From the human T2T-CHM13v2.0 reference genome, Homo sapiens: a stretch of DNA of 64,000 nt. The stretch lies in NCBI RefSeq assembly GCF_009914755.1, contig NC_060941.1; one strand, 5' to 3'. Shown here in pieces: positions 1,149 to 5,354 of the stretch; positions within the stretch are counted from its first letter, which is position 1, and every line of letters begins with the position of its first letter. The notes under the pieces are model-generated. The model saw only the letters and a program-made list of their open reading frames with translations. It searched no databases and was not told the origin of the DNA. A program made the position numbers and the translations under genes.

Positions 1149-1357
1149 CTAGTGAAGGCAGGAATGGAGGGACAGATGGTCCCCTGTGCGTTCAACCTCA
1201 TACAAGCAACTCCAGCCTGGAGGTTCAAAGAAAGGCAGAAAGGTCTGCCCATGACAATGGAGCCTGGTGGATGGAAAAGGGTCACCGTGGCCCCAGTTCC
1301 CTGAAGGTGCTACCTGGAGCCTCTCAGGGTGCTGGATGTGGCTCCCTCAGGAGAACC
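1149..1357 (+). repeat. Inverted duplication, arm A (partner 5146-5354)
   Basis: Ungapped 209-bp alignment to the reverse complement of 5146-5354, 21 mismatches by hand count. Confidence 0.93.
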
Positions 1358-2094
1358 CCGAAGACAGAGTTCTGGTACATTCCTCACCCTGGAGAAGCTG
1401 GGAGCCAAGTAGGGAGCCCATCCAGTGCCTTCCCTGCCTCAGCAGCTGCCAGTGCTTGCCTCTCAAGGCAGATCTCAGCTCCAGGCCTCCCCATCCCCAG
1501 CCAGCCTGATGCTTCTCCATTCCTTGCCCTCCCGAGACTACCCGGCTTCTTCCTTCTGGCTGCTGCACACCCCAAACCCTCTCTCCTAGGCCCTCAGCCC
1601 CCCCAGACAAACCCAGCTTGAGCCCACCCACACACGCCCAGCTTGAGCCCTGTGTCCCCCTGGATCCCCTTAGGACTCTACCAGGCTCCTCTCCCAAGCA
1701 GCCCCAGCCACCTCCTTTTGCCCACAACCGTGCCCTGCCTAACACCAAAGTGAGTCCCTCTGGCTACATCTAACCCTTTCTGGAGATGAGACTCCTGTGA
1801 GGTGAGCAGGGATGTTGAGCAGGGAAGACATACATGCCCCACCAGCCACCTTCGCCACCTCCCACGCCCAGAGCAGACATGGCTAATCGATCCTAGCATT
1901 TGCCCTAGGCTCCAATGCCACCTCAGAATCCTTTTCAACACAGTGCTCAGGCAGCCATTCCTGGTGGATCAGGCCAGGCCTGCGAGATCTCGCTATCTGC
2001 CGCTCAGGCAGAGCTTTGTGTGTGAGGGCCTTGATGCCCTGTGCTGCTTGTGTCAGTGTGTGTGGTGTGAAAATTAAACAATATAAACCAGCAG

Positions 2095-2395
2095 GGGCCA
2101 GGCACAGTGGCTCATGCCTGTAACCCCAGCACTTTGGGAGGCCAAGGCGGGCAGATCACCTGAGGTCAGCAGCTCAGGACCAGCCTGGCCAACATGGTGA
2201 AACCCCATCTCTACTAAAAATACAAAAATTAGCCGGGTGTGGTGGCGCATGCCTGTAATCCCAGCTATTGGGAGGCTGAGGCAGAAGAATCACTTGAACC
2301 CGGGAGGCGGAGGTTGAAGTAAGCCGACATTGCGCCACTGCACTCCAGCCTGGGCGACATAGACTCCATCTCATAAAAAAAAAAAAAAAAACAAC
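2095..2395 (+). mobile_element. Alu (AluS-like)
   Basis: Full dimer with A tail. Confidence 0.95.
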
Positions 2396-2542
2396 CAACC
2401 AGCAGGCATATTTTTAGCTCTTTTTTCAGGGGTGGGACATTGTACTTCGGGTTGTTTCATATGAAGACCACTGGGTCTTGCTCAGTATTGACTTAAAACA
2501 GATAATGTTCGCAGACTGTAAATTCTAAAACCTACCGCCAGA

Positions 2543-2977
2543 GGCCTGGCACAGGGGCTCATGCCTGTAATCCCAGCACTTTGGGAGGCCGAGGCAGGAG
2601 GATCACTGGAGGTCAGGAGTTTGAGACTTGCCTGGCCAACATGGCGAACCCCCGTCTCTACTAAAAATACCAAAATTAGCCAGGCGTGGTGGCGCACACC
2701 TGTAATCCCAGCACTTTGGGAGGCTGAGGCAGGTGGATCATTCAAGGTCAGGAGTTTGAGACACCTGGACAATATGGTGAAACCCCATCTCTACCAAATA
2801 TACAAAAATTAACCAGGCGTGGCGGCACACGCCTGTAGTCCCAGCTACTCGGGAGGCTGAGGCATGAGAATTGTTTGAACTCAGGAGGTAGAGGTTGCAG
2901 TGAGCAGAGATTTTGCCACTGAACTCCAGCCTGGATGACAGAGCAAGACTCAGTCTCAAAAAATAATAATAATAAAA
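2543..2977 (+). mobile_element. Alu with extra left arm (left-left-right)
   Basis: Two successive left monomers, then right arm and (AAT)n tail. Confidence 0.85.
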
Positions 2978-3311
2978 GTACCACCAGAATGTGGCTGTAC
3001 TGTCAGGGGTGCATCCCCAGCTGCACTCCTGCGGTCACTGTGAGTCCCTGAACGGCACCAATGGGCCGGTAGCGCATCCAGCAACGCCCTGATCATGGCC
3101 ACGCACAGGGACGCACATGCTTTCACGAACGCACACCACACATGTGGACACACACACTGTCGCACACAGACACGTACTGACATATGCTCTTACACACAAT
3201 TCACACACGAGCACACACACACACACGCTGACACCCCACGTACATACCCACGTGGTTGTTTGTTTATGCCAGTGATGAAAACTCAGGAACACTAAGGCAG
3301 GGCTGGTGTTG

Positions 3312-3578
3312 CTTTTTTTTTTTTTTTTTGAGACAGAGTCTTGCTCTTGCTCTTGTCACCCAGGCTGGAGTGCAACGGTGCAATCTCGGCTCACTGCAAC
3401 CTCCGCCTCTCAGGTTCAAGCGATTCTCCTGCCTCAGCCTCCTGAGTAGCTGGGATTACAGGCATGCACCCCCACACCCGGCTAATTTTTTTATTTTTAG
3501 CAGAGACGGGGTTTCGCCATGTTGGCCAGGCTCTCTCGAACTCTTGACCTCATGACCCACCTGCCTTGGCCTCCTAAG
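3312..3578 (-). mobile_element. Alu
   Basis: poly-T then reverse Alu consensus. Confidence 0.93.
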
Positions 3579-4748
3579 ATGTTGCCTTTCTTAAGTGACA
3601 TAGACCATGTGGAAAAACCGGGTTACCTGTGGTTAGTGACTAACAATAAAACAGGAAAGGTTATATCCATCACACAAATGTCTGAGGGGGAGAGAATGTG
3701 ACAAGGAATAAAATTGGATCAAATTCTGCAAAAGTAACTGGGATTCTGGGAAGAAGCCGTGGCCTCAGGCTGACTCGCCCCCGGGGCTTGACTTGGGCTA
3801 AGCTCGAGGTGAGTCCACGTCCCCGGGCCCCACTGGGGCTGGGTACACTGGGGACAGCCGCCGGGCTCTGTCCTCCCAAACTTGCCCCTTGCCCAGTCCT
3901 CTTAGGGGGACAACGTGCCATCGAGGGGACCATGCCTCCGCCTGTGTCCTGAACGCTGGGAGGCTGAGGCCCCAGGATTTCTCTTGACCCCAGTGGCACG
4001 GGGGACTCCTGGCTTCACCAGCCCTATGAACCAGGTGAAGGTGAGGCCATAGACAAGGGAGGATGGGGGAGGGAAGAGGGACATAGAGACCAAGACTCAG
4101 AGGGCGTAGCTGCTGGAGCAGGCCGGGGGCAAATCTGTTCTGACATAACGTTGAGACAAATGCCATTTCTAGGAAAGGATACTCTGCTGTCTCCTCTGCG
4201 TATCTCACAGGCACTCAGGTCTAACATGTTCCAAGCGTGCTCCTTGCGCGTCCTGTCCACCCGTGGTCCCTGCTGAGTCCTCTGAGTGCAGCAAACAGCC
4301 CCTCAGGCTTCAGTGGCTCAGGCCCCAAACCTCGGATCTGCCCTTCCCTCACCCAAGGACGTCCTATCTGCTGCCTGCACATCTGGTTCAGAATCAAGCC
4401 CTCCTACCGCTGCCAAGGTCAGGCCAGGGTTGTGCCCATCTCTCCCCATCTCCCCAGGCCTCCTGCCCTCTCCTCCCTCTTCTTCAAGCCATCCTGAGCC
4501 CAGGCCAGCGAGCCTGGTAAAATGTCATCCCCCATGATCCCTCAGCTTAGCACCCTCCCGTGGCCACTCAGAGTGAAAGCCAGGGTCCTTCCTCACCTCC
4601 ACCCCCTTGACTCTCCATGCTCACCTCCCCGGTCTCCCCTCCCCTCTCACTCTGCCCCTCATGAGTCCCATCACAGGCAGGAAGTTCTGCCTTCCCAGCA
4701 CCTGCCACCGAGCCAGGTACACAGCAGGTGCTCAATCAATCCTCTCAC

Positions 4749-4875
4749 CGGCAGCTGCTTCTCCAGGCAGATGCTGAAGGTCTTGGTGTGGTTGGGTTTC
4801 AGCTTCTTCAGGGGCACACGTGTCTCCCCGATGAACTCATTGTGCCGGAATTTGTCCTCGTCACACACAGAGATC
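4749..4875 (-). CDS. DOC2B: DOC2B coding exon 5 (end of C2A), 127 nt; downstream C2B exons are outside the window
   Basis: tctag|G ATC..., [42 protein letters not shown], donor CCG|GTGAG; cumulative CDS 765 nt = 255 codons. Confidence 0.96.
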
Positions 4876-5145
4876 CTAGAGGGGGCGGTGGTGAGGGGCA
4901 CAGCCAGTGCCTCAGACGCACTGGGCATGGTGGAGGTGTGCGCAGGTAGGGCCAGCCCTGGCTTCTCCTGCCCCAAGCCCTGCCCTGGTCTGGGGTGGGA
5001 GACGCACAAGATGCCTGGGCCCTGACAGGGGCAGAGTGTGGCACGATATCAGGCACTGTCCTCATGGACAAGTGTCCTCAGGTTGGAAGAGGGGACAGGA
5101 GAAGGCAGAACCAGTGCCAGGAGTAGCCAGGAGGCTGGGAGAGCC

Positions 5146-5354
5146 GGTTCTCTGGAGGGAACCACCTCCAGCACCCTGAGAGGCCCCAGGAAGCACCTTC
5201 AGGGGACTGGGGCCAGGGTGACCCTTTTCCACCCACCAGGCTCCATTGGCGTGGGCAGACCTTTCTGCCTTTCTTCAAGCCCCCAGGCTGGAGTTGCTGG
5301 CATGAGGTTGAACCCACAGGGGACCATCTGACCCTCCAGTCCTGCCTTCATTAG
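5146..5354 (-). repeat. Inverted duplication, arm B (partner 1149-1357)
   Basis: Same alignment; lies in the intron between coding exons 4 and 5. Confidence 0.93.

What the first reader, a model, noticed from the sequence alone, without database searches (positions are those of the whole stretch)
1149..5354. Non-Alu 209-bp inverted repeat brackets DOC2B coding exon 5
Seen: 1149-1357 and 5146-5354 align as reverse complements without gaps, with 21 mismatches (~90%). I do not recognise the sequence as a transposon. One arm begins only 60 nt after the exon-4 donor; the other is in the next intron, so exon 5 (127 nt, not a multiple of 3) sits in the loop. Established: long intronic complementary pairs promote exon skipping, back-splicing and ADAR editing. 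Inference: the pre-mRNA stem could cause frameshifting exon-5 skipping (NMD-linked control of DOC2B level) or circularisation, and the arms could mediate a ~3.8-kb inversion polymorphism. Oppositely oriented Alus at 811, 2095, 2543 and 3312 could compete with or reinforce the fold.
Basis: partly seen in the sequence, partly recalled or inferred. Interest (0 to 1): 0.72.

Follow-up and report, generated by a model that had tools for sequence, protein, structure and literature searches.

The report
Composite inverted copy block around DOC2B exon 5
A real, non-transposon inverted repeat flanks exon 5 of the human DOC2B gene and looks like part of an old patchwork insertion copied backwards from three later introns; it could fold the pre-mRNA into a long stem, but nothing yet shows that it changes splicing.

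Summary
Window 1141-1357 and 5146-5362 are reverse complements over 217 nt without gaps, with 23 mismatches (89.4%). A search of the whole CHM13 genome finds only these two copies, so they are not independent insertions of an interspersed repeat.

New here: arm B is one of three adjoining segments in intron 4 (4967-5066, 5082-5143, 5146-5362). Each is an inverted copy of a single site in a later DOC2B intron (8, 6 and 5). The segments tile the block, keep the chromosomal order although each is inverted, and have statistically indistinguishable divergence (10.6-15.4%). This fits one old multi-step template-switch insertion better than a simple inverted duplication.

In the sense pre-mRNA the arms are the strongest predicted pairing. 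200 of 217 arm nucleotides pair in register in the minimum-energy fold of a 4425-nt stretch. Introns 3 and 4 hold no Alu and no other complementary match. Skipping exon 5 would shift the frame and should trigger NMD.

I found no published DOC2B circRNA, editing or exon-5 skipping. Inversion by recombination is unlikely, since the longest perfect run is 24 nt. Verdict: a real member of a known kind (non-Alu intronic complementary pair) with an unusual origin; function unproven.

The parts
5146..5362 (-). Arm B (segment b1) in DOC2B intron 4. It starts 52 nt after the exon-4 donor and is the inverted copy of 1141-1357.
   Evidence: 217 nt, 23 mismatches, no gaps
1141..1357 (-). Arm A (site P1) in DOC2B intron 5. 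It lies 3391 nt after the exon-5 donor and 1430 nt before the exon-6 acceptor. It is the presumed source of b1.
5082..5143 (-). Segment b2 of the intron-4 block, 2 nt from b1. It is an inverted copy of a site in intron 6 that lies outside the window at window -807..-749 (chr17:61193-61251), about 300 nt after the exon-6 donor.
   Evidence: 7 substitutions in 59 aligned positions plus one 3-nt gap; the only other copy in the genome; 0 of 200 dinucleotide shuffles reach its score
4967..5066 (-). Segment b3 of the intron-4 block, 15 nt from b2 and 91 nt before the exon-5 acceptor. It is an inverted copy of a site in intron 8 that lies outside the window at window -9040..-8949, 124 nt before the exon-9 acceptor.
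   Evidence: 14 substitutions in 91 aligned positions plus 10 gap columns; local E 3.7e-12; 0 of 200 shuffles reach its score
4749..4875 (-). DOC2B coding exon 5 (127 nt), in the loop of the b1-P1 stem.
   Evidence: hub annotation; splice sites and the 412-aa ORF rebuilt
5415..5524 (-). DOC2B coding exon 4, just upstream of the block.
   Evidence: hub annotation
3663..4281 (-). Exon of other DOC2B transcript models. It also lies inside the loop.
   Evidence: hub annotation; sequence read (an AG precedes 4281)
830..3577 (.). Cluster of Alus in intron 5 between exon 5 and arm A: minus-oriented at 830-1065 and 3302-3577, plus-oriented at 2052-2403 and 2539-2987. They can pair with each other inside the loop.

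Best explanation
The 217-nt pair is not a transposon. It is the largest piece of a 396-nt composite block in DOC2B intron 4 (4967-5362). The block is built of three adjoining reverse-complement copies of unique sequence from later introns of the same gene: intron 5 (1141-1357), intron 6 (window -807..-749) and intron 8 (window -9040..-8949). The most likely origin (inference) is one replication or repair event with serial template switches onto the opposite strand, of the FoSTeS/MMBIR type. It became fixed roughly 25-55 million years ago and turned an intron of about 143 nt into one of 539 nt. As a by-product, the DOC2B pre-mRNA now carries the only complementary matches that link introns 3-4 with downstream introns. 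The b1-P1 stem (194 Watson-Crick, 7 G-U and 16 mismatched positions) can loop out exon 5. When intron 4 is still unspliced as polymerase reaches arm A, 3.8 kb later, that stem would be expected (inference) to attract ADAR, to favour some back-splicing of exon 5 (a 127-nt circle), or to favour exon-5 skipping, which gives a frameshifted NMD-target mRNA. I consider it most likely a near-neutral relic with at most a minor effect on DOC2B output.
For: Shown. The repeat is real. Only two copies exist genome-wide at E<=10 with either arm as query. The same tool found the 62-nt, 84% b2 match, which shows it is sensitive enough. No Rfam family matches the arms (the only overlap, SCARNA21, scores 19 bits against a cut-off of 60, E 0.95). 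The arms are absent from the hub's list of masked stretches, whose shortest entry is 195 nt. The three segments tile intron 4 with gaps of 2 and 15 nt, and all are inverted relative to their partners. b2 and b3 each beat 200 of 200 dinucleotide shuffles. Substitution divergence is 23/217, 7/59 and 14/91 (Fisher p = 0.81 and 0.25 against the arm), compatible with one age. Left-to-right order is kept while each piece is inverted. A plain inverted duplication, or a reverse transcript of either strand copied in one direction, cannot give that; serial switches onto one strand can. Cofold of the arms is -414 kcal/mol against -167 +/- 4.5 for 50 shuffled partners and -272 for the best Alu pair. In the MFE of the 4425-nt pre-mRNA stretch 5524->1100, 200 of 217 arm-B nucleotides pair in register with arm A. 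A BLAST of 3600-7600 against 80 kb gives only these three inverted matches, and no Alu lies in introns 3 or 4. The exon-5 skip gives a stop after residue 242, 246 nt before the last junction. Established knowledge. Complementary matches in flanking introns promote back-splicing and exon skipping (PMC8330042, abstract read; PMC8938519, abstract start in the listing). Template switching creates reverse-complement repeats and hairpins (PMC5453318 and PMC8794818, abstracts read).
Against: No outgroup genome was available, so the direction of copying, the single-event claim and the date are all inferences from one genome. Junction microhomology cannot be read after about 11% divergence. b3 is nominally more diverged and has more indels than b1, so separate events are not excluded. 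There is no sign of selection for pairing: mismatches give 7 G-U in the sense RNA against 5 in the antisense, and they are spread evenly along the arm. Intron 4 is short (539 nt) and has usable splice sites, so it may often be removed before arm A is transcribed, which would limit any effect. No DOC2B circRNA, editing site or exon-5 skipping was found in print or in the 3 held supplement files of one circRNA atlas. No Dfam or RepeatMasker run was possible, so an ancient repeat origin of the source sequences themselves is not excluded.
Confidence: 0.6

Rival explanations
1. The arms are two independent insertions of one interspersed repeat family, known or undescribed.
For: Sharp ends of homology on both sides. 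No repeat library could be run here.
Against: Two independent copies that are 89% alike would each be about 5% from their consensus, so sister copies should be detectable. The whole-genome search finds none at E<=10 with either arm as query, although it did pick up a 62-nt, 84% match. The arm is also contiguous with two more segments whose only partners lie in the same gene.
Confidence: 0.03
2. Three separate inverted duplications landed side by side in intron 4 at different times, possibly favoured by selection for pairing with downstream introns.
For: Nominal divergence rises from 10.6% to 11.9% to 15.4%, and b3 has more indels.
Against: The differences are not significant (p = 0.81 and 0.25). 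Three independent hits that tile one 396-nt stretch with gaps of 2 and 15 nt and share one orientation are improbable without a mechanism.
Confidence: 0.12
3. The intron-4 block is the original sequence, and the sites in introns 5, 6 and 8 are copies taken from it.
For: With one genome the direction of copying is not observed. Both members of each pair have unrelated flanks.
Against: It needs three insertions instead of one. Independent copies of a source should overlap or leave arbitrary gaps, not partition it cleanly.
Confidence: 0.1
4. The stem is a selected regulatory element that sets DOC2B dosage through exon-5 skipping with NMD, or produces a functional circRNA.
For: It is the only complementary match flanking exon 5. 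The predicted stem is very stable and dominates the MFE. Skipping would create an NMD target. Such matches promote skipping and back-splicing in other systems (abstract read).
Against: No bias toward pair-preserving changes (7 G-U in the sense RNA against 5 in the antisense). Divergence is like that of the other two segments. No supporting report was found. The insertion looks primate-age, whereas DOC2B is far older.
Confidence: 0.08
5. The arms act as substrates for non-allelic homologous recombination and create a polymorphic 3.8-kb inversion of exon 5.
For: The inverted orientation and the 3.8-kb spacing.
Against: The arms are only 217 nt at 89.4%, with a longest perfect run of 24 nt. That is far below the few hundred bases of near identity usually needed (recalled knowledge). 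An inversion would also destroy the gene.
Confidence: 0.02

Closest known systems
Intronic reverse-complementary matches (RCMs) that flank circularised or skipped exons; usually inverted Alu pairs in primates
   Same: Complementary sequences sit in the introns on either side of an exon. A long stable stem is predicted that loops the exon out. The expected outcomes are the same: back-splicing, exon skipping and ADAR binding (PMC8330042, abstract read; PMC8938519, listing).
   Different: The pair is not repeat-derived; it is a unique two-copy pair. It is longer and more stable than the local Alu pairs. No back-splice, skipping or editing has been observed for it.
Template-switch mutations and FoSTeS/MMBIR templated insertions
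   Same: Reverse-complement copies of nearby sequence are inserted, and several segments are joined in one block. Such events are known to create hairpin-forming repeats (PMC5453318 and PMC8794818, abstracts read; PMC10710096 and PMC7954356, listing only).
   Different: The published evolutionary cases I read are described as short and local, whereas here the sources lie 3.8, 5.9 and 14 kb away and the copied pieces are 62-217 nt. Multi-segment events over kilobases are mostly described as recent disease rearrangements (recalled). This one is old and fixed, so its junctions can no longer be read.
Docking-site and selector-sequence pairing that chooses exons (Drosophila Dscam exon 6 cluster; recalled, not looked up here)
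   Same: One upstream intronic block has alternative partners in several downstream introns. Here the three pairings would loop out exon 5, exons 5-6 or exons 5-8.
   Different: Here three distinct adjoining segments each have one partner, rather than one docking site with many selectors. The pieces are long and diverging, no mutually exclusive exons exist, and no conservation has been shown.

Membership tests
Interspersed repeat (transposon-derived) copies | Many dispersed copies in the genome at similar divergence | tested here: not met
   Whole-genome searches with either arm return only the two arms at E<=10. The sensitivity of the tool is shown by its detection of a 62-nt, 84% match.
Interspersed repeat (transposon-derived) copies | Match to a curated repeat consensus (Dfam/RepeatMasker) | not testable with these tools
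   No repeat library was available. The arms are not among the hub-listed masked stretches, whose shortest entry is 195 nt. Rfam gives nothing on the arms.
Intronic RCM pair flanking a circularisable or skippable exon | Reverse-complementary sequence in both flanking introns of the same transcript | tested here: met
   Arm B lies in intron 4 and arm A in intron 5 of DOC2B.
Intronic RCM pair flanking a circularisable or skippable exon | The pairing is favoured over competing structures | tested here: met
   Cofold is -414 kcal/mol against -167 for shuffled partners and -272 for the best Alu pair. 200 of 217 nt pair in register in the 4425-nt MFE. This is a prediction only and ignores co-transcriptional splicing.
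Intronic RCM pair flanking a circularisable or skippable exon | An observed back-splice or exon-skipping product | not testable with these tools
   No RNA-seq data were available. Literature searches found none. The 3 held supplement files of one circRNA atlas do not contain DOC2B.
Template-switch (FoSTeS/MMBIR-type) templated insertion | Inserted segments are copies of nearby sequence, often inverted, with several joined together | tested here: met
   Three adjoining inverted segments have single partners 3.8-14 kb away in the same gene.
Template-switch (FoSTeS/MMBIR-type) templated insertion | Microhomology at the switch points | tested here: inconclusive
   Junctions were inspected. After about 11-15% divergence no reliable microhomology can be called.
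Template-switch (FoSTeS/MMBIR-type) templated insertion | An ancestral allele without the insertion | not testable with these tools
NAHR-competent inverted duplication | Long, highly identical arms (hundreds of bases of near identity) | tested here: not met
   217 nt, 89.4% identity, longest perfect run 24 nt. The threshold is recalled knowledge.
ADAR substrate (long intramolecular dsRNA) | A long, nearly perfect duplex within one transcript | tested here: met
   194 Watson-Crick, 7 G-U and 16 mismatched positions in the sense pre-mRNA. This is a prediction only.
ADAR substrate (long intramolecular dsRNA) | Clustered A-to-I sites observed in RNA | not testable with these tools
   No editing database was available. 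One paper holds both 'DOC2B' and 'RNA editing', and it is a gene-family catalogue (listing only).

The most novel reading that the evidence does not exclude
The 396-nt block in intron 4 is a primate-born pairing hub. Its three adjoining segments pair alternatively with introns 5, 6 and 8. These pairings loop out exon 5 (127 nt, frameshift and NMD), exons 5-6 (285 nt, in frame, 317-aa product) or exons 5-8 (464 nt). A single template-switch mutation would then have given DOC2B a new layer of dosage or isoform control, or a set of circRNAs, in neurons, photoreceptors or beta cells.
Probability: 0.07. Interest if true: 0.7.

Novelty: new member of a known kind. Interest (0 to 1): 0.4.

Why it matters
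DOC2B is a calcium sensor for regulated exocytosis (my background knowledge; the papers seen mention insulin sensitivity in mouse muscle and vesicle priming and exocytosis). A lineage-specific stem that can remove a frame-breaking exon would be a simple way to tune its level. The clearer value is mechanistic. This locus appears to preserve an old, fixed, multi-segment template-switch insertion that created long-range RNA complementarity within one gene in a single step. It is a clean case for testing how such mutations seed circRNA-competent or ADAR-competent structures without transposons. If outgroup genomes show the block arriving at once, it also documents kilobase-range serial template switching as an evolutionary, not only pathological, source of intron growth.

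Tried and rejected
- Rfam scan of 1-8000: 19 matches at E<=1. Seventeen are Alu-derived SRP or miRNA look-alikes, one is SCARNA21 at chance level over 1305-1446, and one is CrcZ at chance level. Nothing credible falls on the arms.
- Selection for RNA pairing: 7 G-U in the sense RNA against 5 in the antisense. No signal.
- Gene-conversion tracts: mismatches are spread evenly along the arm. None are evident.
- Base-composition asymmetry at mismatched sites: by my hand tally of the table, arm B carries G or C where arm A carries A or T at 14 sites, and the reverse at 5. The differences in b2 run the other way. I did not pursue this.
- Junction microhomology: not interpretable.
- RNA-mediated origin: a reverse transcript of the sense or antisense RNA copied in one direction gives either collinear or fully reversed order, not the observed pattern of kept order with each piece inverted (reasoning). 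Rejected.
- Literature: DOC2B with circRNA (7 papers), with circular RNA (4), circDOC2B spellings (0), with RNA editing (1) and with exon skipping (3). In the three that I opened no DOC2B mention concerns this locus; the others I judged from titles and abstract starts only. The Maass 2017 circRNA atlas has no DOC2B in its 3 held supplement files. The Rybak-Wolf 2015 brain circRNA paper is not held.
- Rod-specific Doc2b exon: a 27-nt exon exists in mouse (ASCOT, PMC6952364, passages and supplement file 1). I could not place it relative to the repeat without a mouse-human alignment.
- Pfam scan of 136 minus-strand frames: used only to locate exons 6-8.
- Supplements of bioRxiv preprints, and circRNA and editing databases, could not be seen and may hold relevant records.
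Full report
**1. Observation**

The repeat finder on window 1-8000 lists 19 inverted pairs. The top one is 1141-1357 against 5146-5362: 217 nt, 89% complementary, 3788 nt apart. The other 18 have both arms inside the Alu intervals. My own count gives 217 ungapped positions with 23 mismatches (89.4%), 12 transitions and 11 transversions, and a longest perfect run of 24 nt. 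A MAFFT alignment of 800 nt around each arm shows that homology ends abruptly on both sides. The match has E = 1.4e-75 against the whole genome.

**2. Not a dispersed repeat**

The window's own genome (3.1 Gb, 24 contigs) could be searched.
- Arm A returns itself and arm B only; 2 of 2 candidates were scored.
- A 421-nt query around arm A at E<=10 returns the same two.
- A 311-nt query around arm B at E<=10 returns five places: itself, arm A, a 44-nt match discussed below, and two 40-nt GC-rich hits on the same chromosome. The last two fall on the first 40 nt of intron 4, outside the arm.

The tool warns that very common words are skipped. It did detect a 62-nt, 84% match, so copies as similar as the arms are to each other would have been seen.

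Rfam gives nothing credible on the arms. The Alus show up as partial SRP matches, which fixes their orientation. In the whole 64-kb window, 200 inverted BLAST pairs reach E<=1e-10, and 7 of them lie outside the hub-listed masked stretches. Five of the other six involve stretches that match Alu elsewhere (93-210 and 17418-17721) or their partners. The sixth is a CA/TG-rich local hairpin. The pair under study is therefore the only strong unique inverted pair in the window.

**3. Gene geometry**

DOC2B is on the minus strand. I rebuilt exons 6-9, which lie before the window, from 16 kb fetched. I used Pfam C2 hits, splice sites and the reading frame. The nine exons give a 412-aa ORF with GT/AG at every junction checked.
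- Exon 6: window -447..-290.
- Exon 7: window -7631..-7550.
- Exon 8: window -8569..-8473.
- Exon 9: starts at window -9165.

Arm B lies in intron 4 (4876-5414, 539 nt), 52 nt after the exon-4 donor and 270 nt before the exon-5 acceptor. Arm A lies in intron 5, 3391 nt after the exon-5 donor. Exon 5 is 127 nt. Skipping it gives a stop after residue 242, 246 nt upstream of the last exon junction, so NMD is expected.

**4.

A sensitive BLAST of intron 4 against 80 kb (16 kb upstream plus the window) finds two more inverted matches right next to arm B.
- 5082-5143 matches window -807..-749 (84% over 62 columns).
- 4967-5066 matches window -9040..-8949 (75% over 101 columns; 79% over the 67-column core).

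The first match was also found independently by the genome-wide tool, as the only other copy in the genome. Each match scores 66 bits. The maximum over 200 dinucleotide shuffles was 38 bits for 4967-5066 and 36.5 bits for 5082-5143, so 0 of 200 reach the observed score in either case. A query of 3600-7600 gives no other inverted match anywhere in the 80 kb; the only further hit is a 33-nt direct match.

Intron 4 therefore holds a 396-nt block, 4967-5362, tiled by three segments with gaps of 15 and 2 nt. Each segment is the reverse complement of one site in a later intron: intron 8 (124 nt before the exon-9 acceptor), intron 6 (about 300 nt after the exon-6 donor) and intron 5.

Substitution divergence is 23/217 (10.6%), 7/59 (11.9%) and 14/91 (15.4%). 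Fisher tests against the arm give p = 0.81 and 0.25.

**5. Origin (inference)**

On the plus strand the partners lie in the order intron-8 site, intron-6 site, intron-5 site. The three segments in intron 4 lie in the same order, yet each is inverted.
- A plain inverted duplication would reverse the order.
- So would an inverted copy of a spliced or deleted derivative.
- A reverse transcript of the sense or antisense RNA, copied in one direction with jumps, gives either fully collinear or fully reversed order.

The pattern is what serial template switching gives. A nascent minus strand leaves its template near 5363. It copies 1141->1357 from the opposite strand, then -807->-749, then -9040->-8949, each jump going further ahead. 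It then returns near 4966.

The clean tiling also argues that the block is the chimeric product rather than the source of three independent copies. This is the FoSTeS/MMBIR class of event. Short-range versions are documented as a source of inverted repeats and hairpins in human and great-ape evolution (PMC5453318 and PMC8794818, abstracts read; PMC7954356 and PMC10710096, search listing only).

Removing the block leaves an intron of about 143 nt. The Kimura distance of the arms is 0.115. With 1.0-2.2e-9 substitutions per site per year (recalled range) this gives about 25-55 million years.

Three limits apply. I had no outgroup genome. Junction microhomology is unreadable. The third segment is nominally more diverged. 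I therefore put about 0.6-0.7 on a single event.

**6. What it can do (prediction and inference)**

In the sense pre-mRNA the arms give 194 Watson-Crick, 7 G-U and 16 mismatched positions. Predicted energies:

| Pairing | Energy (kcal/mol) | Control (kcal/mol) |
|---|---|---|
| Arms, cofold | -414 | -167 +/- 4.5 for 50 shuffled partners |
| Five local Alu pairs, cofold | -160 to -272 | not run |
| 5082-5143 with its intron-6 partner, duplex | -120 | -54 shuffled mean |
| 4967-5066 with its intron-8 partner, duplex | -151 | -64 shuffled mean |

The minimum-energy fold of the 4425-nt stretch from exon 4 to just past arm A pairs 200 of 217 arm-B nucleotides in register with arm A.

An Alu probe gives 22 hit rows in the gene span, with 0 in introns 3 and 4. 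They cannot compete for arm B and can only pair among themselves inside the loop. One plus-oriented Alu in intron 2 (8599-8838) could pair with minus-oriented Alus in intron 5 and bracket exons 3-5.

The three pairings would loop out exon 5, exons 5-6 (285 nt, in frame, 317-aa product) or exons 5-8 (464 nt). They cross one another, so they are alternatives or a pseudoknot.

Complementary matches in flanking introns are an established driver of back-splicing and exon skipping, and they bind ADAR (PMC8330042, abstract read; PMC8938519, listing).

**7. Evidence against a real effect**

- Mismatches show no bias toward pair-preserving changes (7 G-U in the sense RNA against 5 in the antisense).
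- Mismatches are evenly spread along the arm.
- The arm is no better conserved than the other two segments.
- Intron 4 is short and may be spliced out before arm A, 3.8 kb downstream, is made (inference).
- The literature holds nothing on this locus. The searches were: DOC2B with circRNA (7 papers), DOC2B with circular RNA (4), circDOC2B spellings (0), DOC2B with RNA editing (1, a gene catalogue) and DOC2B with exon skipping (3). Passages were read. One circRNA atlas has no DOC2B in its 3 held supplement files.
- Inversion by homologous recombination is unlikely for such short, diverged arms (the threshold is recalled).

**8. Verdict**

It belongs to a known kind: a non-repeat intronic complementary pair, born by template switching. 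Function is unproven, and I rate a selected regulatory role at under 10%. Comparative alignment of intron 4 and a look at back-splice, skip and editing reads would settle both questions quickly.

Noticed in passing
L004 5367-5810 (window -2633..-2190, DOC2B intron 6): A tandem array of 12 copies of a 37-nt unit, 97% matches. It is a likely VNTR inside DOC2B intron 6.
   Followed up: partly
window 38965-39293: A local inverted repeat (38965-39064 against 39197-39293, 79% over 100 nt) around a CA/TG-rich core. It lies in the gap between LINC02091 and RPH3AL. As RNA it folds at -144.5 kcal/mol, z = -6.1, with 0 of 100 shuffles as stable.
   Followed up: partly
window 3663-4281 (minus strand): The exon of other DOC2B transcript models lies inside the loop of the stem. 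An AG precedes 4281, but I saw no canonical AATAAA near its 3' end at 3663. If it is used as a terminal exon, those transcripts would end before arm A is made.
   Followed up: no
DOC2B / mouse Doc2b (mm10 chr11:75785517-75785543): The ASCOT study lists a 27-nt exon of mouse Doc2b and calls the Doc2b exon rod-specific and unaffected by Msi1 knock-down (PMC6952364, passages and supplement file 1). A preprint reports the same independence from MSI1 in human retinal organoids. I could not determine its position relative to the intron-4 block.
   Followed up: partly
window 5371-5410 (first 40 nt of intron 4): This GC-rich stretch has two 40-nt, 90% matches about 81 kb apart on the same chromosome, at chr17:60901488-60901527 and 60982705-60982744, in opposite orientations (E 2e-5). 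It is probably compositional and was not examined.
   Followed up: no
window 8599-8838 (DOC2B intron 2): This is the only Alu upstream of exon 5 within introns 2-4, and it is plus-oriented. It could pair with the minus-oriented Alus in intron 5 and bracket exons 3-5 (312 nt, in frame).
   Followed up: no
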